Assembly (NCBI GenBank): GCA_041664225.1
Contig: JBAYLE010000004.1
Span: 10,640 to 74,639, forward strand
Direction of reading: 5' to 3'
Source of the DNA: Parcubacteria group bacterium
GTDB taxonomy: Bacteria; Patescibacteriota; Minisyncoccia; Moranbacterales; UBA2206
DNA: 64,000 nt
In this document: positions 4-57,499 of the stretch, one piece after another
Position numbering within the stretch: the stretch's first letter is position 1
Layout of the letters: the number at the start of each line of letters is the position of its first letter
The notes under the pieces: model-generated
Database searches by the model: none
What the model was told of the DNA's origin: nothing
The model's input: the letters and a program-made list of their open reading frames with translations, nothing else
Position numbers and translations under genes: made by a program

Positions 4-1164
4 ATGAAAAAAAACGGAAAAAAAAGAGAGCAGGAATTGCTTGAGAAGACAGCTCGGATTTATCAATCTATTACCCGCGATTCAATGGACGGGTTTTTGG
101 CAGTTGATATGCGGGGTCGGTTTTTGGATGTGAATGACGCTTATTGCCATTTGATAGGCCATAGCCGGAGCGAACTTTTGAAAATGAACATAGCCGATGT
201 TGAAGTTGGAAAAAAGTCGAAAGATGTCGTAAAAAATCTCCAAAGAATAAAGAAGGCGGGTGAAATTCGATTTGTAACTCAACATCGGAGAAAGGATGGA
301 AAAATTATTTTTATCGAAGCCAGCGCCAATCATGCCAATTATGCCAACTATTTGGGCGGATTGGTATTTATTTTTATCCGCGACATCAGCAAGCGCAAGA
401 AAAAAGAAGATAAGCTGGCCAAAAATCGCGCTAAATCAAAAAAGATAATGGAGGGGCAGCTGGCCGACGCATACAAGCATTCTGAAGATCAGGACAAGTC
501 AAAAAAGAAAATGGAGGGACGGCTGGCTGATTCATACCAGCATTCTAAAGACCAGGTCAAGTCAAAAAAGAAAATGGAGGGACGGCTGGCTGATTCATAC
601 CAGCATTCCAAAGATCAAGATAAATCAAAAAAGAAAATAGAAGGACAACTGGCTGACGCATACAAGCATCTGGGAACAATCAACAGAAAAATTTCCCTCC
701 TTCTGGAATTGGAATATTTTCCGAAATCAAAAAAACACGATCAAAAAATTATAGACCATGTTTTGAATTTAGCGATGAACATTTCGAATGCTCAAACGGG
801 CTACCTTTATGGTTCAAAAGGAAGAGGCAGGTTTGATTTATTATCCTGCAAAGGATGCGAAGAAGAGCAGAAAGAAAAAATCAAAGTTATCACATCCCGC
901 AAGGTCGAGCTTCTGAAGCATTTACTCAAAGAAAAAAATCTCATTAGCGGAAATATAAAGCAACACAGAGTAGAACTCTTGGCGCTGAATGATAAACTGG
1001 AATATTTTGTTACCCTGCCTCTTTCAAAAGAAACAGCTCTGGGAGGTTTTATTTTTCTCGGTTTTGATAAAAAGAAAAGCGTGGACGCGCAGGATTTAGA
1101 ATTTCTGGATGTATTCGCGATACACGCTTCAAACGCTTTAGCCAAAGCTGGTGTTTTGAAATAA
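4..1164 (+). CDS. PAS domain - coiled repeat - GAF-like domain sensor protein (no recognisable output domain)
   Basis: N-terminal PAS-like segment (SMDGFLAVD...RFVTQHRRKDGKIIFIE), four in-frame 21-aa repeats, C-terminal GAF-like region; stop codon at 1-3 just upstream so gene is complete. Confidence 0.6.
   Translation: MKKNGKKREQELLEKTARIYQSITRDSMDGFLAVDMRGRFLDVNDAYCHLIGHSRSELLKMNIADVEVGKKSKDVVKNLQRIKKAGEIRFVTQHRRKDGKIIFIEASANHANYANYLGGLVFIFIRDISKRKKKEDKLAKNRAKSKKIMEGQLADAYKHSEDQDKSKKKMEGRLADSYQHSKDQVKSKKKMEGRLADSYQHSKDQDKSKKKIEGQLADAYKHLGTINRKISLLLELEYFPKSKKHDQKIIDHVLNLAMNISNAQTGYLYGSKGRGRFDLLSCKGCEEEQKEKIKVITSRKVELLKHLLKEKNLISGNIKQHRVELLALNDKLEYFVTLPLSKETALGGFIFLGFDKKKSVDAQDLEFLDVFAIHASNALAKAGVLK
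436..687 (+). repeat. 4 x 63-nt in-frame tandem repeat inside the PAS-GAF gene (units 2 and 3 nearly identical)
   Basis: Units begin at 436, 499, 562, 625; each encodes SKKKMEGRLADSYQHSKDQDK-like 21-mer. Confidence 0.85.
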
Positions 1165-1192
1165 GCCACGATGGGTAATTATGCACCAGGGC

Positions 1193-1281
1193 TTAAATCA
1201 GGAATATACACACATTCCCTTTTATTCATAAAAATATTTCCAACATCCTTGACTGTGGCGTGCGGACATAAAAAAGAGGCT
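1193..1281. repeat. 89-bp direct repeat, copy 1 (identical to 4701-4789)
   Basis: ttaaatcaggaatatacacacattccc...gcggacataaaaaagaggct identical at both loci; each copy runs into a hairpin plus T-run. Confidence 0.9.
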
Positions 1282-1373
1282 TTGATTAGTCTCTTTTTTG
1301 GTAGGGACAGTAGAAAGTTAAAACTTTTAGTGGTAATATAAAAATAATAAAATAGATCAACTAAAACAAAAAT

Positions 1374-3410
1374 ATGGAACATAATCACAATCACGAACAA
1401 ATAAATTATTCTTCATCAATGGCCGGAATGAAACATGATCACGACCAAGAAGTAGAATACAACAAGCACGCAGGGCATTCCATTGATAATTTTAAAAGAA
1501 AGTTTTATATCTCCCTGATTTTGACTTTGCCAATTTTGTTTCTTTCCCCATTCATTCAGGGTTTGCTACATATTTCTTTCAGATTTCCAGGCGACCAACT
1601 GGTCTTGTTTCTAATCTCGTCTTTTGTTTTCTTTTTTGGAGGCAGTCCGTTTCTGGTCGGGGCGGTTAGTGAAATCAAACATAAGGCATTGGGAATGATG
1701 ACGCTCATTTCATTGGCTATCGGTGTGGCGTATTTTTACAGTTCGGCCGTAACTTTCGGACTAAAAGGCGAGGTGTTTTTCTGGGAACTAGCAACTCTGA
1801 TTGACATTATGCTTTTGGGGCACTGGCTGGAAATGAAATCGGTAATGGGAGTGTCCAGAGCATTGGAAAAATTATCCCAGCTCATTCCAGATAAAGCCCA
1901 CTTAAAAAAGGAAAATGAGGTAGTTGATGTTGATGTCAGCGAACTTAAAAAGGGAGATATTATTTTGGTGAAGCCAGGCGAAAAAATACCAACAGACGGT
2001 AGTGTAGTCAAAGGCGAAAGTTTCGTGAACGAGTCAATGCTCACGGGCGAAGCCAAGCCCGTTTCCAAAGAGACAGGCTCTAAAGTTATTGGTGGTTCCA
2101 TTACGGAAGAAGGTTCATTGGAAATACGAGTGGAAGGCGTGGGCGAAGAAACCTATCTTTCCAAGGTGATAAAACTGGTTAAAGATGCCCAAACTTCAAA
2201 ATCCAAAACACAATTATTAGCCGACAAAGCCGCTTTTTGGTTGACGCTTATTGCCATCAGCATTGGCACAATAACTTTTATTACCTGGCTGGCCTTAGGC
2301 AGAGACATTGCGTTTGCCATAGAACGAGCCGCTACAGTACTCATTATCGCTTGTCCGCACGCTTTAGGATTGGCTGTTCCACTGGTAGTGGCAATTTCTA
2401 CCACGCTATCCGCTCAAAACGGACTGCTTATCAGAAACAGAACCGCTTTTGAAAACGCCAGAAGAATTACGACAATTATTTTTGACAAAACGGGAACGCT
2501 AACCAAGGGAACATTCAGTGTTAAGAAGATTTATGCATTGGATAATAATTACAGTGAAAACAAAATTTTACAAATAGCCGCTGCGTTGGAGCGTAATTCT
2601 GAACACCCGATTGCCAGAGCGGTAATAGCAGATGCTGAAAGCAGGAAAGTTGAAAAACTGGAAGTTGCTAATTTCAAAGCAATAAAAGGGCAAGGTATAA
2701 AAGCGATAGTGGACAACAAAAAAATAATTATTGCCAGCCCTGGATATTTGAAAGAGCTGAAATTGTCAGTTTCGGACATATTCAATCAGGTGGAAGGCAC
2801 GGTAATATTTGTAGTAGTTGAAGATAATGGCTACAAGCTAATTGGAGCGTTGAATCTTTCTGATACCATCAGGGATGAATCGTACGGCGCCATTAAACTA
2901 TTAAGAGACGAAGGCATTAAAATGTGGATGCTCACTGGCGACAATGAAAGCTCGGCAAAAAGTGTGGCAGAAACACTGAAATTGGATGGCTACTTTGCTG
3001 GAGTGTTGCCGCATCAAAAACAAGAAAAAGTCAAAGAACTGCAAGATAAGGGAGAGTTTGTAGCAATGGTAGGAGATGGAATCAATGATGCTCCTGCTCT
3101 GGCTCAAGCTAATGTAGGAATTGCTATAGGAAGTGGAACGGACGTTGCTGCTGAGACAGCTGATATAATTTTGGTCAACAGCAATCCGCAAGATATTGCC
3201 TCGCTGGTTCTTTTTGGCAAGGCGACTTACAAAAAAATGGTTCAAAATTTGGCTTGGGCAACGGGATATAATGTGATTGCAATTCCTTTGGCGGCAGGAG
3301 TTTTGGCGGGCTATGGAATTTTACTTTCTCCTGCTTTGGGAGCTATCTTTATGTCATTAAGCACGGTGGTGGTGGCGATAAACGCCAAGATACTAAGAGT
3401 AAAAAAATAA
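1374..3410 (+). CDS. copB: P1B-type heavy-metal translocating ATPase, CopB-like (CPH motif, His-rich N-terminus)
   Basis: MEHNHNHE...HDHDQ His-rich N-term; TM motif CPH (IIACPHALGLAVP); DKTGTLT phosphorylation motif; MVGDGINDAPAL hinge. Confidence 0.85.
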   Translation: MEHNHNHEQINYSSSMAGMKHDHDQEVEYNKHAGHSIDNFKRKFYISLILTLPILFLSPFIQGLLHISFRFPGDQLVLFLISSFVFFFGGSPFLVGAVSEIKHKALGMMTLISLAIGVAYFYSSAVTFGLKGEVFFWELATLIDIMLLGHWLEMKSVMGVSRALEKLSQLIPDKAHLKKENEVVDVDVSELKKGDIILVKPGEKIPTDGSVVKGESFVNESMLTGEAKPVSKETGSKVIGGSITEEGSLEIRVEGVGEETYLSKVIKLVKDAQTSKSKTQLLADKAAFWLTLIAISIGTITFITWLALGRDIAFAIERAATVLIIACPHALGLAVPLVVAISTTLSAQNGLLIRNRTAFENARRITTIIFDKTGTLTKGTFSVKKIYALDNNYSENKILQIAAALERNSEHPIARAVIADAESRKVEKLEVANFKAIKGQGIKAIVDNKKIIIASPGYLKELKLSVSDIFNQVEGTVIFVVVEDNGYKLIGALNLSDTIRDESYGAIKLLRDEGIKMWMLTGDNESSAKSVAETLKLDGYFAGVLPHQKQEKVKELQDKGEFVAMVGDGINDAPALAQANVGIAIGSGTDVAAETADIILVNSNPQDIASLVLFGKATYKKMVQNLAWATGYNVIAIPLAAGVLAGYGILLSPALGAIFMSLSTVVVAINAKILRVKK

Positions 3411-3439
3411 TAAGAATATTTGAAAGGAGGTGAGAAATA

Positions 3440-3573
3440 TGATGGATTATAATATGATGAACGGAGCTGGCGGGAGCGGCATGATGCTTTTCGCTTGGGT
3501 TAATTATATTTTAGTAGTTGTCCTACTTGTTTTAGGCATCGTCGCTTTTTGGAAGTATATTAATAAAAATTAA
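3440..3573 (+). CDS. Met-rich small membrane peptide (44 aa) immediately downstream of copB
   Basis: Strong SD AGGAGGTGA 7 nt upstream; MMDYNMMNGAGGSGMMLFAW... then a single TM helix; not in ORF track (<60 aa). Confidence 0.4.
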
Positions 3574-3862
3574 ATGTTACAATTAAGATATAGTGAGCTA
3601 CACAGCGGGATAATCTATATTTGTAAGTTTGGTATATAAATATATTCTTTTTTATTAATAAAAATAGTTCCCGTTTGCTGGCAGGCAGGCTAATGTCCCT
3701 GACGACCCCGTGCTGGCCAAAACAAGGCTTAAACAAGTCTTGTTTTTGTATGGGGATGGTAGGAATTAGAACTGTATTGTTCTGTTACTATGATGTAATA
3801 AGTGTCTTTGGGTGTATAATTAAAATAAGCATTAACAATTTAATAATCAAAATTAAAAAACT

Positions 3863-4222
3863 ATGAAAAAAATCGCAGTTATAACATTAGTAGTAGCTGG
3901 AGCAATTGTCTTGGGTGGTTGTAGCTTGTATGGAGGAACCTCCAGCAATACTGCCACCTCTACGCCAGCGCCAACGCAGGGAACCAATATGGTTAATATT
4001 CAAAACTTTGCTTTTAACCTTGGAACGCTGACGATCAAGAAAGGCGAAACTGTAACCTGGACTAATAATGATTCGGTTCTGCACCAAATTAAATCCGCAA
4101 CATTCAATTCCAGTCAGTTGAGCAAGGGTCAGACTTTCTCATTCACTTTCGATGATGCAGGAACATTTGATTACTCGTGTGCCATCCATCCTTCCATGAT
4201 GGGCAAAATAATTGTTGAATAA
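3863..4222 (+). CDS. Cupredoxin (type-1 copper, plastocyanin/azurin-like) lipoprotein
   Basis: Signal peptide with lipobox LGGCS; C-terminal Cys-x2-His-x4-Met copper ligand motif (YSCAIHPSMMGKI) plus upstream His (VLHQIK). Confidence 0.75.
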   Translation: MKKIAVITLVVAGAIVLGGCSLYGGTSSNTATSTPAPTQGTNMVNIQNFAFNLGTLTIKKGETVTWTNNDSVLHQIKSATFNSSQLSKGQTFSFTFDDAGTFDYSCAIHPSMMGKIIVE

Positions 4223-4252
4223 GGTTCATAATTGGTAGTTTAACTTAATTCT

Positions 4253-4699
4253 ATGAAAAAAAATTATTTAACAATAGTAGCGGGCGCAGCGATAATCTCA
4301 GCAATAGGCGTCTTTATCATCGATTATTTTTCTCACTTGTTATTTTCAAATCCAATGGAGACAGGACCATATTTTGTTGCAAAAGCGGCTGTTTATTTCA
4401 TATTCTCTCTTGTATTCTTATCTGTTATAAATCTGGAGAAAAATGAATTTATTAAGGTGGCGGTTGGCGGAATTATCGTCGCATCGCTTTGGGGAATGTA
4501 TTATAATATTTTCCCATTGCTGTTTAATTACTATCCCTTCGGAATTTCTCTAAGCGGCTTAACTTTTTTAGGAACGGGACTTTTCGGAACTGGTCTTGCT
4601 TTCGGGATTGTTCACACTCTCGCATTTGTAGGTGGATATTATTCTTCTAAATTTATATTCAATTTTTTTGAAAATTTTAAAGTAAAGAGAGCATCATAA
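4253..4699 (+). CDS. Integral membrane protein, unknown function (4 predicted TM)
   Basis: ORF with hydrophobic segments; last gene inside the repeat-bracketed cassette. Confidence 0.55.
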   Translation: MKKNYLTIVAGAAIISAIGVFIIDYFSHLLFSNPMETGPYFVAKAAVYFIFSLVFLSVINLEKNEFIKVAVGGIIVASLWGMYYNIFPLLFNYYPFGISLSGLTFLGTGLFGTGLAFGIVHTLAFVGGYYSSKFIFNFFENFKVKRAS

Positions 4700-4700
4700 T

Positions 4701-4789
4701 TTAAATCAGGAATATACACACATTCCCTTTTATTCATAAAAATATTTCCAACATCCTTGACTGTGGCGTGCGGACATAAAAAAGAGGCT
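4701..4789. repeat. 89-bp direct repeat, copy 2
   Basis: Perfect match to 1193-1281. Confidence 0.9.
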
Positions 4790-4806
4790 CCCAAAAGCCT
4801 CTTTTA
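4781..4806 (+). terminator. Intrinsic terminator (aagaggct-cccaaa-agcctctt + TTTT)
   Basis: 8-bp GC-containing stem followed by T-run; uses 3' end of repeat copy 2. Confidence 0.6.
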
Positions 4807-4843
4807 AATTATAATTTTATTGTTGTCAAAAAATACGAAGCTA

Positions 4844-4871
4844 TTGACAAAACCAAGATTTCTGATATAAT
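4844..4871 (+). promoter_or_regulatory. Near-consensus sigma70-type promoter (TTGACA-16-TATAAT)
   Basis: TTGACA at 4844-4849, TATAAT at 4866-4871; drives the GC-rich three-gene operon. Confidence 0.6.
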
Positions 4872-4935
4872 GGATTACTCAGTCGAGATGCTGTTTAAAA
4901 TTTGCACAAATCTAACGTACTAGGGGGTACGAATA

Positions 4936-5295
4936 ATGAAGAAGATATTTATATCCGTTGGCGGTGAAAAGCCGGGAAATCCCATGGAGATGGCCCTCAA
5001 GCAGGTGGCCGGTCTCACGCAACAGGTAGTTGATAACCCCGAGGAGGCCGATCTCATTGTGGTCGACTCTGCATCGAATGCTCTCAAGATGTTGAAGGAA
5101 TACGATGAAGCGATCATAGCCGTAGCTTTAATAAGAGAAGCACGCTATGAAGAGCCTGGCGCTCGCTCGCTCAAAGAAGCGTATCCGAAGCAAGTCATTA
5201 TTGCCCAGATGTACAAAACCGAAGATGGAACCGACGATGTTTTATTGGTTCCTTATGTTATGACATTCACAAACGAAAGGAAGGAGAAAAAATAA
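4936..5295 (+). CDS. Small hypothetical protein (119 aa), paralog of 5764-6132; flavodoxin/receiver-like alpha-beta pattern
   Basis: SD AGGGGGT; ~40% identity to third gene of the operon (…NPEEADLIVVDSASNALKMLKE…YPKQVIIAQ vs …NPEAADVIIVSNHSDALRMLKE…YPERIIIGQ). Confidence 0.7.
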   Translation: MKKIFISVGGEKPGNPMEMALKQVAGLTQQVVDNPEEADLIVVDSASNALKMLKEYDEAIIAVALIREARYEEPGARSLKEAYPKQVIIAQMYKTEDGTDDVLLVPYVMTFTNERKEKK

Positions 5296-5296
5296 T

Positions 5297-5767
5297 ATGG
5301 GGAAAAGAATACTTTTAGTGGATGACACAAAAAAGCACAGAAAAGCCGGGATCGCACAGTTGACGGCCTTGGGGCACGAAGTAGTTGCTGTTTCGGGTTA
5401 CGAGGACGCAGTCAATGAGTTGAGGAAGGGTGAAAAGTTTGATATAGCTCTTCTGGATCTGCTGATGCCGGCCGAAGGCATGACGCTGGGCGGCGACGGT
5501 CTCAAATATCTCGGACAGCCAATAGACATCGGTTTCTCACTTGCGATGAAGCTGGCGCTTGAAGGCATCAAGGAAATAGCTGTAGTCACAGACATGGGTC
5601 ATCATTCTCATCCGGCCAGCGCTATCTTCGACTGGTTTTTAGGAAAGAAGCTGACTATTTGCGGAAGCAATGTGCGCTGTATGCATGCGCATATTATCAG
5701 AGATAACGATGATGTGAAAGACTGGGCGGCGGCGCTTGAGTCGCTGTTGGGAGGTGAAGAAGAATGA
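5297..5767 (+). CDS. Atypical response-regulator receiver-domain protein with His/Cys-rich C-terminus
   Basis: ILLVDD…, conserved Asp in FDIALLDLLMP (phospho-acceptor position), VVTDMG; ~25-aa insertion and C-terminal HHSHP…CGSNVRCMHAH; SD AAGGAG; start overlaps previous stop. Confidence 0.65.
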   Translation: MGKRILLVDDTKKHRKAGIAQLTALGHEVVAVSGYEDAVNELRKGEKFDIALLDLLMPAEGMTLGGDGLKYLGQPIDIGFSLAMKLALEGIKEIAVVTDMGHHSHPASAIFDWFLGKKLTICGSNVRCMHAHIIRDNDDVKDWAAALESLLGGEEE

Positions 5768-6132
5768 AGAAAAAGATCCTCATAGCTGTTGATGAAAGCA
5801 AGGCGGAAGGAATCACAAACTCTCTCAAAAGAGCCGCATATTTTTTAGGCAATGAGCTGGTTAATAATCCCGAAGCTGCGGATGTGATTATTGTCAGCAA
5901 TCATTCTGATGCACTCAGGATGCTCAAAGAGAATGATGATGCGACCGTGGTCATTGCTGCCGAGTTCCTTGCGGAAGATAACATCGGCATCAGGACTCTC
6001 AAAGAGAGATATCCGGAGCGTATCATTATCGGACAATATCTCGAGCATTATCTCAAACCGGGAGATGTAATGCTGGTCAATTACATTAAGGATTTAGGAA
6101 AGGAGAATCTGGAAAAGGAGAAAAAGAGTTAA
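5764..6132 (+). CDS. Small hypothetical protein (122 aa), paralog of 4936-5295
   Basis: ATGA overlap with upstream gene; SD GGAGGTG. Confidence 0.7.
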   Translation: MKKKILIAVDESKAEGITNSLKRAAYFLGNELVNNPEAADVIIVSNHSDALRMLKENDDATVVIAAEFLAEDNIGIRTLKERYPERIIIGQYLEHYLKPGDVMLVNYIKDLGKENLEKEKKS

Positions 6133-9207: not shown

Positions 9208-10203
9208 ATGAATAAAATATTTCCCCAAAAATTGAAAAAGGGTGACACGGTGCAAGTTGTTGCGCCGGCTTGCTCGCTGGGAATCATCTCAAAAGAAAAC
9301 CGAGAAATTTCCAATCAGCGCTTTGAGGAAATGGGACTCAAAGTAATTTTTGGCAAGCATGTTGAGGAGATGGACGAGTTTCGCTCTTCTAGCATCGAAT
9401 CACGCATCAAAGATTTGCATGATGCTTTTAGCAATCAGGAAGCGAAAGCCATCTTTTCCGTGATTGGGGGTTTTAACAGCAATCAGCTTTTAAAATATAT
9501 CGATTGGGATCTGATCGGAAATAATCCTAAAATTTTTTGTGGCTATTCGGATATCACGGTTCTCAACAACGCAATTTTTGCCAAAACGGGATTGGTGAAT
9601 TATTCCGGGCCGGCTTATGCAACTTTTGGACAAAAACTGGGTTTCGAATATTCTCTGGATTATTTTCAAAAATGTGTATTTGATGATAAGGATTTTGAAA
9701 TTATTCCTTCCAAAAAATGGAGCGACGACGCGTGGTATCTGGATCAAGGGAAGAGAATATTTTTAGAAAATGAAGGTCCATTGGTCATCAACGAGGGAGA
9801 GGCGGAGGGAACAATTATTGGAGGAAATCTTTGCACACTTAATTTGATTCAAGGGACGGAATATTTTCCCGATCTGTCAGGCTCGATTTTGTTTTTAGAA
9901 GACGATGATTTAGGTGGAAAACTAACGGACGTGGAGTTTGACAGAAACCTACAATCACTTATCCAACAACCCGGCTTCGCGGGTGTTAGGGGGATAGTTA
10001 TGGGGCGTTTCCAAAAAAGCTCTGAAGTGAAAAATGAAAAATTGATAAAAATAATCAAAACTAAAAAAGAACTAGGCGGCATTCCAGTCGTTGCTAACGT
10101 AGATTTTGGACACACGCAATCGATGATAACTTTCCCGATCGGGGGAGAAGTGAAAATAATGGCAAAAAAAGACGGGGCTAAAATTGAGATATGGAGACAC
10201 TAA
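9208..10203 (+). CDS. LD-carboxypeptidase, peptidase family S66 (LdcA/MccF-like)
   Basis: Ser nucleophile context CGYSDITVL; overall S66 architecture. Confidence 0.8.
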   Translation: MNKIFPQKLKKGDTVQVVAPACSLGIISKENREISNQRFEEMGLKVIFGKHVEEMDEFRSSSIESRIKDLHDAFSNQEAKAIFSVIGGFNSNQLLKYIDWDLIGNNPKIFCGYSDITVLNNAIFAKTGLVNYSGPAYATFGQKLGFEYSLDYFQKCVFDDKDFEIIPSKKWSDDAWYLDQGKRIFLENEGPLVINEGEAEGTIIGGNLCTLNLIQGTEYFPDLSGSILFLEDDDLGGKLTDVEFDRNLQSLIQQPGFAGVRGIVMGRFQKSSEVKNEKLIKIIKTKKELGGIPVVANVDFGHTQSMITFPIGGEVKIMAKKDGAKIEIWRH

Positions 10204-22249: not shown

Positions 22250-22278
22250 TTGACAAAAAGGCGTTTTGGGTGTATAAT
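22250..22278 (+). promoter_or_regulatory. Consensus sigma70 promoter TTGACA-17-TATAAT
   Basis: TTGACA 22250-22255, GGGTGTATAAT with TATAAT 22273-22278. Confidence 0.65.
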
Positions 22279-22351
22279 TGTTAATTCTGGTGATGGTAAG
22301 GTTTTTGACAAATAATCCCGCTTTCGCGGGAAAAAATATGGAGGAGGAAAG

Positions 22352-40623: not shown

Positions 40624-41724
40624 ATGCAATTAGCTCAAATACAAACCATTCCTCTCGTTATCTGTGTGCTAAAAATTCTAACAGTTGGTTTGTCGGCCTT
40701 TGTTTTAGCTTTTGCTATCACGCCGATTATGACTCATTTTCTGTACAAATATAAAATTGGCGTCAAAATAAAAGACAAGTCTGTTGATGGCAAAGAGCTG
40801 ACTTTTGTGAATAAGCTTCACGAATACAAAAATGGAACGCCAACGATGGGCGGGATTTTGATTTGGGTCTCTGTCGGAATTTTAATTTTGCTTTCACACT
40901 ATGTTTTTCCGTATCTGGCGGCATGGACGCATCATAATTTTTTCGCCAGGCTGGACTTTTTCAGCCGCAAAGAGACTTGGCTTCCGCTTTTTACGTTGGT
41001 TACCGCGGGAATATTGGGACTCTGTGATGACTGGATGAGCATAAAAGGCATTGGAAAAAATAAAGGCGGAGGCATGCGGTTTGCCAAGCGTTTTGGGTGG
41101 CTGATCTTAATCGCGGCGGCTGGTGCTTGGTGGTTTTATTACAAGTTGGGCTGGGATGTCATCCATGTTCCGGCTGTTGGAAACTTTAGCATCGGCTGGT
41201 GGTATATTCCGCTTTTTATCTTTGTTATTCTTTTTTCAGCTATTTCCTCAAATGAAACTGATGGTCTGGACGGATTGAATGGCGGAGTGCTGCTGATCGC
41301 TTTCAGTTCGTTTGCGATTATTTCTTTTGCTCATAATAAATTGGATTTGGCTGCATTTTGCGCGGCGATTGCCGGCGCGCTACTGGCCTTTTTATGGTTT
41401 AATGTTTATCCGGCCCGATTTATTATGGGTGATACCGGCGCGGTGTCCTTGGGAATAACACTGGGGGTAGTAGCGATGCTCAATAATGCTGCGATTGTCT
41501 TGTTCATCATTGTTTTTATTTATGTTTTAGAATCTTTGAGTGTTGCGATCCAACTGACGAGCAAAAAATTCTTCAAACGCAAAGTTTTTCTGGCAGCGCC
41601 AATCCATCATCATTTTGAGGCCAAGGGCTGGCCGGAAACCAAGGTGACGATGCGCTTTTGGATCATTACTGCCCTCACTGCTTTTTTTGGTGTGGTAATC
41701 GCGTTGTTTGGGATGGGGAAATAG
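40624..41724 (+). CDS. mraY: Phospho-N-acetylmuramoyl-pentapeptide transferase
   Basis: NGTPTMGGILI, DDWMS, 10-TM topology. Confidence 0.9.
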   Translation: MQLAQIQTIPLVICVLKILTVGLSAFVLAFAITPIMTHFLYKYKIGVKIKDKSVDGKELTFVNKLHEYKNGTPTMGGILIWVSVGILILLSHYVFPYLAAWTHHNFFARLDFFSRKETWLPLFTLVTAGILGLCDDWMSIKGIGKNKGGGMRFAKRFGWLILIAAAGAWWFYYKLGWDVIHVPAVGNFSIGWWYIPLFIFVILFSAISSNETDGLDGLNGGVLLIAFSSFAIISFAHNKLDLAAFCAAIAGALLAFLWFNVYPARFIMGDTGAVSLGITLGVVAMLNNAAIVLFIIVFIYVLESLSVAIQLTSKKFFKRKVFLAAPIHHHFEAKGWPETKVTMRFWIITALTAFFGVVIALFGMGK

Positions 41725-41785
41725 TTTAAAATTTCTAATTTCTAAACAAATCCCAATTTCTTAATGACTAATTTCCAAAATAATT

Positions 41786-44213: not shown

Positions 44214-44335
44214 AATTTCTAATTTTCAATTTCTAATTTCTGAACAATTTCCAATGAATTAATTTCTAAATTTTGGAATTAAAAAATTGGTTTGAAAATT
44301 TAAAATTGAAAATTGAAAATTTGGAGAATAATATA
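44214..44335. repeat. AT-rich AATTTC/GAAAATT microrepeat block forming a ~110-bp imperfect palindrome
   Basis: caatttctaattttcaatttctaatttc … gaaaatttaaaattgaaaattgaaaattt; related half-copies at 28650-28675 and 41725-41775. Confidence 0.7.
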
Positions 44336-57373: not shown

Positions 57374-57499
57374 TTTTTCTTCCCCCTGTATTTGAAACAA
57401 TCGAGAGCTAATTTTTAATATACTGGCTCTTAATTATACACCCAAACTGGCATTTTGTCAAGCATTGCGCCTGATTTTAGCGCGTGGTAAAATTTAATT

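What the first reader, a model, noticed from the sequence alone, without database searches (positions are those of the whole stretch)
1193..4806. Copper-handling cassette bracketed by identical 89-bp direct repeats
Two perfect 89-bp copies (1193-1281 and 4701-4789) bracket four genes: a CopB-type (CPH, His-rich) P1B-ATPase, a Met-rich 44-aa peptide, a type-1-copper cupredoxin lipoprotein and a membrane protein. Each repeat sits immediately 3' of a stop codon. Each contains an internal hairpin (ggaat…attcc) and runs into a terminator hairpin. No other long repeats are visible in the window. Perfect identity therefore implies a recent event: a cassette inserted by recombination between repeat copies, or a mobilisable MITE-like or terminator-associated element.
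Basis: seen in the sequence. Interest (0 to 1): 0.65.

Follow-up and report, generated by a model that had tools for sequence, protein, structure and literature searches.

The report
Recombinase-gene relics bracketing a copper cassette
The two identical 89-bp repeats around the copper genes are leftover 3' ends of a serine-recombinase gene read on the opposite strand, part of a previously undescribed relic family that marks the borders of acquired gene modules in Patescibacteria (CPR) genomes.

Summary
1193-1281 and 4701-4789 are identical, absent elsewhere in the window, and present in two independent assemblies.

The repeat is not a MITE, a REP or a structured RNA. Its minus strand reads as a conserved peptide (consensus WLRIVDNVRTIIQRQNEYIYIPDL) with a clear codon signature. 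Longer relatives join this tail to a resolvase catalytic domain, a weak zinc-ribbon match and a coiled coil. It is therefore most likely the extreme C-terminus of a Patescibacteria large serine recombinase (LSR).

At least 170 short ORFs carry it, all cut at the same Trp codon. Each DNA copy inspected abuts an intrinsic terminator.

A third, degenerate copy (3624-3713) splits the cassette into ATPase+Met-peptide and cupredoxin+membrane-protein modules.

In other CPR contigs the relics form arrays next to a recombinase gene end (L039, L065). Copies within an array share a near-identical Trp-proximal core and differ in the distal half, as attachment sites would.

The ATPase module is horizontally shared. 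The closest relative lacks the cassette at this locus.

The window's array has no recombinase and its cores are mutated, so it looks like a fossil. The perfect 89-nt identity is best read as a recent homologous event. The relic origin is well supported; the attachment-site mechanism is inferred.

The parts
4..1164 (+). PAS/GAF sensor-like gene. This is the left chromosomal flank, and synteny with the closest relative ends 8 nt after its stop codon.
   Evidence: Pfam PAS and GAF. 82% aa and about 85% nt identical to L012. Alignment with L012 stops at window 1169.
1179..1265 (-). Relic E1: the last 24 codons, a 4-codon tail (SPGA) and the stop of a serine-recombinase-type gene. It reads ..PHATVKDVGNIFMNKRECVYIPDLSPGA*. 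The conserved residues R, T and Y are mutated.
   Evidence: Six-frame HMM hit 1262-1194 at 24 bits. Codon alignment. The tail SPGA resembles the family tails SPQA and SPRA.
1193..1281 (.). Copy 1 of the perfect 89-nt direct repeat. It covers relic E1 without its tail, then 16 nt, then the 5' arm of terminator 1.
1270..1299 (.). Intrinsic-terminator-like hairpin 1: A-tract, GAGGCT / AGTCTC stem, then T6. It could terminate in both directions.
   Evidence: MFE -14.8 kcal/mol, z -4.1
1331..1339 (+). TGGTAATAT, an extended -10-like candidate promoter for the ATPase module (inferred).
   Evidence: Read from the sequence. Similar TGnTAnAAT motifs follow the terminator in relic units of L039, L024 and L045.
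1374..3410 (+). Copper-translocating P1B-type ATPase with a CPH motif, a His-rich N-terminus and no HMA domain.
   Evidence: TIGR01511 at 604 bits; Pfam E1-E2_ATPase and Hydrolase. Relatives at 85-88% aa lie in unrelated contexts.
3439..3573 (+). 44-aa Met-rich membrane peptide, co-transferred with the ATPase.
   Evidence: 73% aa identity in L003 and L004, directly after the ATPase. Nucleotide homology 1359-3574 ends at its stop codon.
3624..3713 (-). Relic E3, a degenerate third copy: HGVVRD.. + roughly 19-nt GC-rich insertion (3672-3690) + ..TIFINKKEYIYIPNL.
   Evidence: tblastn and HMM hit 3668-3624 at 19 bits. Close to L049 through the relic, the terminator and beyond.
3721..3748 (.). Terminator-like hairpin 3: CAAGGCTT / AAGTCTTG stem, then T5.
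   Evidence: MFE -24.7 kcal/mol for 3700-3760, z -3.7
3863..4222 (+). Cupredoxin (amicyanin/plastocyanin-like) lipoprotein.
   Evidence: PF00127 and PF13473. TIGR02657 E=5e-16, below its cut-off.
4253..4699 (+). 148-aa multi-pass membrane protein with no family match. Its stop codon lies 1 nt before repeat copy 2.
4701..4789 (.). Copy 2 of the perfect 89-nt repeat. It contains relic E2 (4702-4773, minus strand). The native tail is absent: the reading continues into the 3' end of the 148-aa gene.
4778..4805 (.). Terminator-like hairpin 2: GAGGCT / AGCCTC stem, then T4.
   Evidence: MFE -13.4 kcal/mol, z -4.2
4844..4871 (+). Consensus sigma-70 promoter (TTGACA-16-TATAAT with an upstream TG) for the next operon, which starts at 4936. 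This is the right flank.
   Evidence: 12 of 12 consensus matches

Best explanation
Each 89-bp repeat is a non-functional relic of the last roughly 24 codons of a Patescibacteria large serine recombinase (LSR) gene, lying on the minus strand. It is fused at a fixed breakpoint (the Trp-codon position) to an A-tract/hairpin/U-tract terminator.

Such relic-plus-terminator units delimit horizontally acquired gene modules in CPR genomes. Here three of them (E1, E3, E2) separate PAS/GAF | ATPase+Met-peptide | cupredoxin+membrane protein | next operon.

Inferred mechanism. The relic is, or derives from, the recombinase's attachment site, which is embedded in the recombinase's own 3' coding end. The crossover would lie near the invariant GTTAGAAC. 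Recombinase-less cassettes integrate next to the recombinase gene and push older 3' ends outward. This gives arrays of the form recombinase-E-cargo-E-cargo.

The window's array has lost the recombinase and its cores are mutated, so it is a fossil. The perfect identity of E1 and E2 runs across the whole relic and into the terminator arm, so a site-specific crossover does not explain it. It reflects a recent homologous event: gene conversion, or insertion or duplication by recombination between relic copies. It also leaves the 3.5-kb copper cassette deletable by RecA-type recombination.

Shown: the repeat, the coding signature, the family, the fixed boundary, the arrays, and HGT of the ATPase. 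Inferred: the attachment-site role, the order of events, and excisability.
For: 1. Coding signature on the minus strand. Pairwise differences at codon positions 1/2/3 are 218/161/369. Synonymous codon differences are 37%, against 7-26% in the other five frames. There is 1 stop against 8-24.
2. Family. Profile searches find 140 short ORFs and 349 cluster representatives at E<=0.001. Where named, they are from Patescibacteria.
3. Parent gene. P0315 joins a Resolvase domain (PF00239, E=1e-10, above cut-off; weak NCBIfam hits, all far below their cut-offs, to IS607 transposase, YneB, XisF and the SCC recombinases CcrA/CcrB) to the tail. P0404 has a weak Zn_ribbon_recom match, a coiled coil and the tail. 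The alignment shows a shared block of about 110 aa...EKRxLLNxLLQNxxLxGKKLxFxLKKPF...WLRIVDNVRT...YIYIPDL.
4. Fixed breakpoint. Information content falls from 1.6-2.3 bits at the Trp position to 0.3-0.5 bits one residue upstream, across 172 ORFs.
5. Arrays next to a longer recombinase-like ORF end:
   - L039 has relics at 9595 (continuing as an ORF to the contig end), 9014, 5852 and 5126, bracketing single genes.
   - L065 has relics at 131-205 (in a partial ORF at the contig end) and 875-946.
6. Within one genome the Trp-proximal 33 nt are 94-100% identical, while the distal 39 nt are 67-79% identical. Between genomes the proximal part is only 61% identical.
7. GC-rich palindromic insertions sit in or next to GTTAGAAC in four independent copies.
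8. The relative's single copy (L012:8735) and window E1 both lie at synteny breakpoints on either side of the shared Transgly_assoc-YggT-PAS/GAF block.
9. The ATPase module is horizontally shared, and in the closest relative it sits about 400 kb away.
Against: - No full-length recombinase carrying this tail was recovered. The longest informative ORFs are fragments or lie at contig ends.
- PDB sequence and fold searches are not significant. Serine-integrase chains appear only among non-specific coiled-coil hits at E>=0.1.
- No recombinase was found in the window (the Pfam survey showed only 25 of 79 families).
- No circular form, empty site or strain polymorphism was observed.
- E1 and E2 are identical while E3, between them, is diverged. 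A simple sequential-accretion history does not predict this.
- The high within-genome identity of the proximal part could come from gene conversion rather than from site specificity.
- The codon test uses only 9 copies, 4 of them from one contig.
Confidence: 0.6

Rival explanations
1. Neutral debris. The relics are only the last surviving pieces of decayed integrated elements or prophages whose integrase gene sat at the element end. They have no site function. E1=E2 is a chance local duplication.
For: The window copies carry non-conservative changes at the most conserved residues (R->G, T->N, Y->C). E3 is interrupted by an insertion. No recombinase is nearby. Several longer fragments look like pseudogenes.
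Against: Random decay does not predict an identical breakpoint at the Trp codon in about 170 independent ORFs. It does not predict arrays of relics bracketing single genes (L039, L065). It does not predict a proximal half homogenised within a genome but diverged between genomes.
Confidence: 0.2
2. A self-propagating MITE/REP-like intergenic element consisting of relic + terminator + promoter. It spreads within and between genomes and happened to land on both sides of the cassette.
For: Intragenomic near-identical units extend beyond the relic into the terminator and promoter: L039a versus L039c, w3 versus L049, and w1=w2 into the terminator arm. The family is dispersed across many unrelated intergenic sites.
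Against: No terminal inverted repeats or target-site duplications were evident in the copies inspected (not formally scanned). Copy number is low: 3 in 72 kb, all at this locus, and one hit per pattern in the relative's 557-kb contig. Copies within a genome differ mostly at synonymous sites, which implies divergence while they were part of functional genes rather than copying of a dead element.
Confidence: 0.1
3. A functional plus-strand RNA: a 3'-UTR element, small RNA, or metal-sensing leader acting with the terminator on the downstream copper genes.
For: The element always precedes a terminator and lies upstream of the ATPase and cupredoxin genes. It is conserved at about 80-88% between genomes whose other intergenic DNA does not align.
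Against: No Rfam match at E<=10. The only internal hairpin shows no covariation. Folding of the copy-1 region is not exceptional (z -1.7). Substitutions follow minus-strand codons. Neighbouring genes in homologous loci are unrelated to copper, and in L012 no co-oriented gene follows.
Confidence: 0.04
4. An antisense micro-protein gene (about 26-36 aa, ..VxDVRTIIQRQNEYIYIPDL..) that is still expressed.
For: Clear purifying-selection pattern. Some family members have a start codon just before the block, for example MRGQIVKDVRTII.., MGRIVEDVRTIL.., and the MRDLVNNVRTDIKNHKG.. subfamily.
Against: Start positions and N-termini are inconsistent (ORFs of 24-89 aa). L059 has no start codon. In the window the only start lies inside the terminator. 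L024, w3 and L049 have stops or frame breaks. Longer relatives show the block is the end of a much larger protein.
Confidence: 0.06

Closest known systems
SCCmec / SCC composite islands (large serine recombinases CcrAB/CcrC integrating at the 3' end of rlmH/orfX)
   Same: Serine-recombinase family. P0315's catalytic domain gives weak CcrA/CcrB hits, far below their cut-offs. From general knowledge of SCC: the target lies in the 3' end of a gene, recombinase-less cassettes (psi-SCC) occur, and tandem arrays are separated by short direct repeats that contain the integration site.
   Different: Here the repeated site is the 3' end of the recombinase gene itself, not of a housekeeping gene. The repeats are about 72-90 nt of former coding sequence rather than 15-27 bp. 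The cassettes are tiny (1-6 genes) and carry their own terminator and promoter. No recombination has been demonstrated.
Integron cassette arrays and CALINs (attC clusters lacking an integrase)
   Same: Arrays of small, co-oriented gene cassettes. Each is followed by a family-related recombination-site-like element, located next to a recombinase gene, and orphan arrays without the recombinase also exist.
   Different: Integrons use a tyrosine recombinase (IntI). Their attC sites are non-coding imperfect palindromes recognised as folded single strands. Here the element derives from coding sequence, has no attC-type symmetry, and the linked enzyme is a serine recombinase.
Genomic islands that target the 3' end of tRNA/tmRNA or protein genes and carry a replacement 3' end
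   Same: Displaced copies of a gene's 3' end are left as direct repeats at island borders. Tandem accretion gives several displaced ends.
   Different: Those islands usually use tyrosine integrases and target host genes. The island carries its own integrase, and the repeats are identical only over the crossover segment.
Terminator-associated intergenic repeats (REP/BIME, ERIC, Correia, RUP, MITEs)
   Same: Short, dispersed intergenic sequences in a fixed orientation, associated with hairpins or terminators and sometimes promoters.
   Different: No terminal inverted repeats or target duplications were evident. Copy number is low. The conserved core evolves like codons on the opposite strand and is homologous to a recombinase C-terminus.

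Membership tests
Relic of a large serine recombinase (LSR) gene 3' end | Sequence evolves or evolved as protein-coding in one frame | tested here: met
   Codon positions 218/161/369; 37% synonymous against 7-26% in other frames; 1 stop against 8-24
Relic of a large serine recombinase (LSR) gene 3' end | Homologous block found at the C-terminus of proteins that carry serine-recombinase domains (Resolvase, Recombinase, Zn ribbon, coiled coil) | tested here: met
   P0315 has PF00239 at E=1e-10 plus the tail. P0404 has Zn_ribbon_recom at E=0.005, below cut-off, plus a coiled coil and the tail. Shared block of about 110 aa in A5. Caveat: all are fragments and no full-length protein was recovered.
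Relic of a large serine recombinase (LSR) gene 3' end | Structural or sequence similarity of the tail region to solved serine integrases | tested here: inconclusive
   PDB sequence searches gave nothing. The AF2 model has pLDDT 70. Foldseek has no hit at E<=0.001; 9dxh, 9y66 and 4kis appear only among generic coiled-coil hits.
LSR attachment site (attB/attP-like) | Discrete site of about 40-50 bp with a fixed outer boundary and a conserved centre | tested here: inconclusive
   Sharp boundary at the Trp codon. Invariant GTTAGAAC about 24-27 nt inside. The proximal 33 nt are 94-100% identical within a genome. No clear dyad symmetry was found.
LSR attachment site (attB/attP-like) | Recombinase-dependent integration or excision, with circular or empty-site forms | not testable with these tools
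   No reads and no strain variants. Both metagenome contigs carry the cassette.
LSR attachment site (attB/attP-like) | Cognate recombinase gene adjacent | tested here: not met
   None in the window (tblastn). Met only in other loci: a recombinase-like ORF runs to the contig end in L039 and L065.
MITE | Terminal inverted repeats and target-site duplication | tested here: inconclusive
   None evident when the unit's ends and flanks were read by eye across 14 copies; the flanks are unrelated. The whole-window inverted-repeat scan (30-nt minimum, 14-nt seed) could not detect short TIRs.
MITE | Many near-identical copies per genome | tested here: not met
   3 copies in 72 kb, all at this locus. One hit per pattern in the relative's 557-kb contig.
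Structured cis-regulatory or small RNA | Match to a known RNA family, or covariation-supported structure | tested here: not met
   Rfam gave 0 hits at E<=10. The hairpin is 76.9% paired against 76.7% in shuffles, and 321 of 500 shuffles score as high.
Intrinsic (Rho-independent) terminator, for the hairpin that follows each relic | Stable G+C-containing stem-loop followed by a U-tract | tested here: met
   -14.8, -13.4 and -24.7 kcal/mol with z about -4, followed by T4-T6. Termination itself was not tested.
Integron attC | R''/L''-L'/R' imperfect palindrome and an IntI tyrosine recombinase | not tested
   No attC model was available. The element's coding origin and its link to a serine recombinase argue against membership.

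The most novel reading that the evidence does not exclude
Patescibacteria carry a serine-recombinase-based gene-cassette system. The attachment site lies inside the recombinase's own last roughly 25 codons, with the crossover near GTTAGAAC. Each captured cassette consists of a terminator, a promoter, 1-6 genes and a replacement 3' end. It restores the recombinase C-terminus and displaces the previous one. This builds integron-like arrays whose fossils, such as the copper locus here, persist as relic-plus-terminator punctuation between acquired genes.
Probability: 0.3. Interest if true: 0.8.

Novelty: new variant of a known kind. Interest (0 to 1): 0.6.

Why it matters
CPR/Patescibacteria have tiny genomes, and how they acquire accessory genes is poorly understood. 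A recombinase-derived relic with a fixed boundary, recurring at the borders of small gene modules, would give a sequence tag for recent acquisitions. Modules seen here include copper export, NUDIX hydrolases and toxin or defence genes.

If the attachment-site reading is correct, it would reveal an integron-like cassette platform driven by a serine recombinase. It would also supply natural att sites and recombinases of possible use in genome engineering.

For this locus specifically, it explains why the copper genes look like an insertion. It predicts that homologous recombination between the 89-nt repeats can delete the cassette.

Tried and rejected
- **Rfam.** Scans of 900-5200 at E<=10 and of the whole window at gathering thresholds found nothing.
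- **Copper riboswitch or leader idea.** Dropped, because homologous elements sit next to unrelated genes and substitutions follow antisense codons.
- **tmRNA tag, group II intron end, IS200/IS605 end, integron attC.** Considered from memory and set aside. The sequence features do not fit, and longer homologues point to a serine recombinase.
- **Relic ORFs against Pfam, PHROGs and NCBIfam.** No family.
- **Literature.** A search for the peptide motifs gave 0 papers. Searches for serine recombinase together with Patescibacteria or CPR gave nothing relevant.
- **Phage and plasmid collections.** No match with the DNA or with the longer proteins.
- **IMG/VR.** Protein-pattern and degenerate-DNA scans gave no confirmed hit.
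- **GTDB genomes.** A scan with the 3' block found only the known relative plus 7 chance hits.
- **PDB sequence and fold searches of the tail region.** Not significant.
- **Full-length recombinase.** Look-ups of P0251, P0315, P0404 and P0318 gave only contig-end or fragment genes.
- **Invalid step.** An early protein alignment (A1) contained two sequences I had mistyped. It was discarded and not used.

Full report
**1. Observation**

The two 89-nt stretches 1193-1281 and 4701-4789 are identical, and identity does not extend a single base to the left. To the right, the loops of two terminator-like hairpins differ at 5 of 6 positions. The 3' arms (AGTCTC and AGCCTC) are again similar, which gives 105 nt at 94%. 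Sub-words of the repeat occur nowhere else in the 64-kb window even with three mismatches, and 0 matches are expected by chance. An ENA contig and a JGI contig from different samples carry the same 7 kb, base for base, with both copies.

- a copper P1B ATPase with a CPH motif and a His-rich N-terminus;
- a 44-aa Met-rich peptide;
- a cupredoxin lipoprotein;
- a 148-aa membrane protein.

**2. Organism and origin of the cassette**

The contig is a Parcubacteria-group (Patescibacteria/CPR) MAG (source names). Of 60 ORFs of at least 90 aa, 59 are on the plus strand.

The ATPase has relatives at 85-88% amino-acid identity in many CPR lineages: Moraniibacteriota, Portnoybacteria, Buchananbacteria and Magasanikbacteria. 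These relatives sit in unrelated neighbourhoods, some next to a prophage. Nucleotide identity of about 80% is confined to the ATPase, with or without the Met-rich peptide.

The closest relative genome is JBAZPT010000001, a 557-kb contig whose PAS/GAF protein is 82% identical. It keeps the upstream Transgly_assoc-YggT-PAS/GAF block, but homology stops 8 nt after the PAS/GAF stop codon. Its copper ATPase lies about 400 kb away. The cassette is therefore an acquisition. No true empty site is available, because synteny is broken at that point anyway.

**3. The repeat belongs to a family**

The relative has one homologue of the repeat. It sits 3' of an unrelated 400-aa gene and carries a 36-nt GC-rich palindromic insertion (L012:8735-8880).

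A metagenome scan with the 5' 20-mer recovered further true homologues (L024/L055, L039, L045, L046, L049, L054, L059) among chance hits. Each lies in an intergenic region, after the stop codon of the preceding gene and before a hairpin with a T-tract. The neighbouring genes have nothing to do with copper.

The window itself holds a third, degenerate copy at 3624-3713, between the Met-peptide and cupredoxin genes. This copy resembles L049 through its own terminator. No other copy exists in the remaining 59 kb or in the 8.6 kb upstream.

**4. The conserved core is coding sequence on the minus strand**

Read on the minus strand, all copies give ..V(D/N/K)(D/N)VRTI(I/F/L)x(R/K/N)(Q/K)xxY(V/I)YIPDL followed by 1-10 residues and a stop codon.

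In nine ungapped copies:
- differences concentrate at third codon positions (218/161/369);
- 37% of codon differences are synonymous, against 7-26% in the other five frames;
- the frame has 1 stop, against 8-24.

Rfam finds nothing.

**5. The parent gene**

A profile of the peptide finds 140 short ORFs of 24-89 aa. None matches Pfam, PHROGs or NCBIfam, and all that carry an organism name are from Patescibacteria. An exhaustive profile search finds 349 cluster representatives at E<=0.001.

The longer ones extend the homology upstream to about 110 aa: ITxxxYDxKxxEL...ADxxY...VLxLAxRAxEIFESSEPEEKRxLLNxLLQNxxLxGKKLxFxLKKPF...WLRIVDNVRT...YIYIPDL. Two tie this tail to a recombinase:
- P0315 joins it to a Resolvase catalytic domain (PF00239, E=1e-10, above the cut-off). 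Its weak NCBIfam hits, all far below their cut-offs, are to an IS607 transposase, YneB, XisF and the SCC recombinases CcrA/CcrB.
- P0404 places a weak recombinase zinc-ribbon match and a long coiled coil in front of it.

This is the domain order of large serine recombinases, as I know it from established work on that family. I could not recover a full-length member. PDB sequence and fold comparisons of the tail are not significant. I therefore put the assignment of the parent gene at about 0.75-0.8.

**6. Features that argue for more than random decay**

(a) *Fixed breakpoint.* Across 172 ORFs, conservation stops abruptly at one position, the Trp codon. Information content is 1.6-2.3 bits there and 0.3-0.5 bits one residue upstream. 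In the DNA copies, an A-tract and a terminator hairpin of unrelated sequence start at that point.

(b) *Arrays.*
- L039 has four relics within 4.5 kb that bracket single genes. The last one continues as a recombinase-like ORF to the contig end.
- L065 has a partial recombinase-like ORF end at the contig end, then one antisense gene, then a second relic, then toxin and defence genes.

(c) *Split conservation pattern.* Within a genome the Trp-proximal 33-38 nt are 94-100% identical among copies. The distal half is only 67-79% identical, and its differences are mostly synonymous. Between genomes the proximal half is the less conserved of the two, at 61% against 76%.

(d) *Invariant centre.* The boundary between the two halves is the string GTT AGA AC. 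It showed almost no synonymous variation in the 9 aligned copies; only the window copy departs. It is also the spot where four independent copies (w3, L049, L012, L024) carry different GC-rich palindromic insertions.

(e) *Synteny breakpoints.* In both this genome and its closest relative, a relic sits exactly at a synteny breakpoint flanking the shared four-gene block.

**7. Interpretation**

The most economical reading is that the relic is, or derives from, an attachment site embedded in the recombinase's own 3' coding end. Small cassettes lacking a recombinase would integrate there. Each would bring a replacement C-terminal end and displace the previous one.

This resembles three known systems: SCC elements at rlmH, tRNA-targeting islands, and integron arrays with their orphan CALINs. 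It differs from them in the enzyme or in the nature of the site. It is an inference, because no recombination product was observed.

**8. This locus**

The order is:

PAS/GAF | E1 + terminator | promoter-like TGGTAATAT, ATPase, Met peptide | E3 + terminator | promoter-like TGTATAAT, cupredoxin, membrane protein | E2 + terminator | consensus promoter and next operon.

No recombinase is present. E1 and E2 carry GTTGGAAAT in place of GTTAGAACY and have lost conserved Arg, Thr and Tyr residues. E3 is interrupted. The array is therefore a fossil.

E1 keeps a family-typical tail (SPGA*, compare SPQA and SPRA), followed by TAATTACC, which it shares with L054 and L049. E2 lacks that tail and abuts the stop codon of the 148-aa gene. 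The E1=E2 identity spans the whole relic, 16 further nt and the terminator's 5' arm, and ends in the loop. That is a signature of homologous exchange: gene conversion between two pre-existing relics, or Campbell-type insertion or duplication through a relic. It is not the signature of a site-specific crossover. With 89 identical bases in direct orientation, the 3.5-kb copper cassette should be deletable by homologous recombination.

**9. Verdict**

- The element is a new, undescribed relic family of a known kind of system: site-specific-recombinase-associated island or cassette borders.
- The relic origin is well supported. The attachment-site mechanism is plausible but untested.

Noticed in passing
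window 3672-3690; L012:8788-8823; L049 about 905-925; L024 about 530-565: Four independent relic copies carry different GC-rich palindromic insertions of 19-41 nt at the same spot, inside or next to the invariant GTTAGAAC. This could be an insertion hot spot or a footprint of DNA breakage at the putative crossover site.
   Followed up: partly
L039 5126-5200, 5852-5925, 9014-9090, 9595-9670; L065 131-205 and 875-946: Within one genome the Trp-proximal half of the relic is 94-100% identical among copies, while the distal half is as diverged as between genomes.
   Followed up: yes
L039 9596-9758; L065 1-220; L066 4228-4731: The longer recombinase-like ORFs that end in the relic all lie at or within about 30 nt of contig ends. 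This suggests a multi-copy or mobile gene that breaks assemblies.
   Followed up: no
window 433-669: Tandem 63-nt (21-aa) repeats sit inside the PAS/GAF gene between the PAS and GAF domains. Relatives have proteins of 366, 383, 386 and 408 aa, so repeat number probably varies.
   Followed up: no
L005-L009 (ATPase loci of other CPR genomes): A copper ATPase about 87% identical lies directly next to a prophage-like block (SU10-type portal and major capsid protein). Two of these contigs come from the same samples as the window genome.
   Followed up: no
window 4936-6132: Paralogous 119-aa and 122-aa proteins of unknown family (39% identical) flank a 156-aa receiver-domain-like protein. The region has higher G+C (0.43-0.49) than its surroundings.
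   Followed up: partly
window 41722-41774 and 44220-44272; 22250-22279 and 57432-57461: A 53-nt AT-rich direct repeat (77%) occurs in two intergenic regions. A 30-nt promoter-consensus-like sequence (TTGACA..TGTATAAT) is present in inverted orientation 35 kb apart.
   Followed up: no
window 1171-1341 (+): JGI annotated a 56-aa plus-strand ORF across repeat copy 1 (L002 2408-2578). It has no homologues and is probably a spurious call over the relic.
   Followed up: partly
L001 6978-7530 (upstream of the window): Cluster of tRNA-like sequences with a small Cys-rich, ribosomal-protein-like ORF (assignments by eye only). It replaces the restriction-modification/helicase/NUDIX island plus relic found at the equivalent position in the closest relative (L012).
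   Followed up: no
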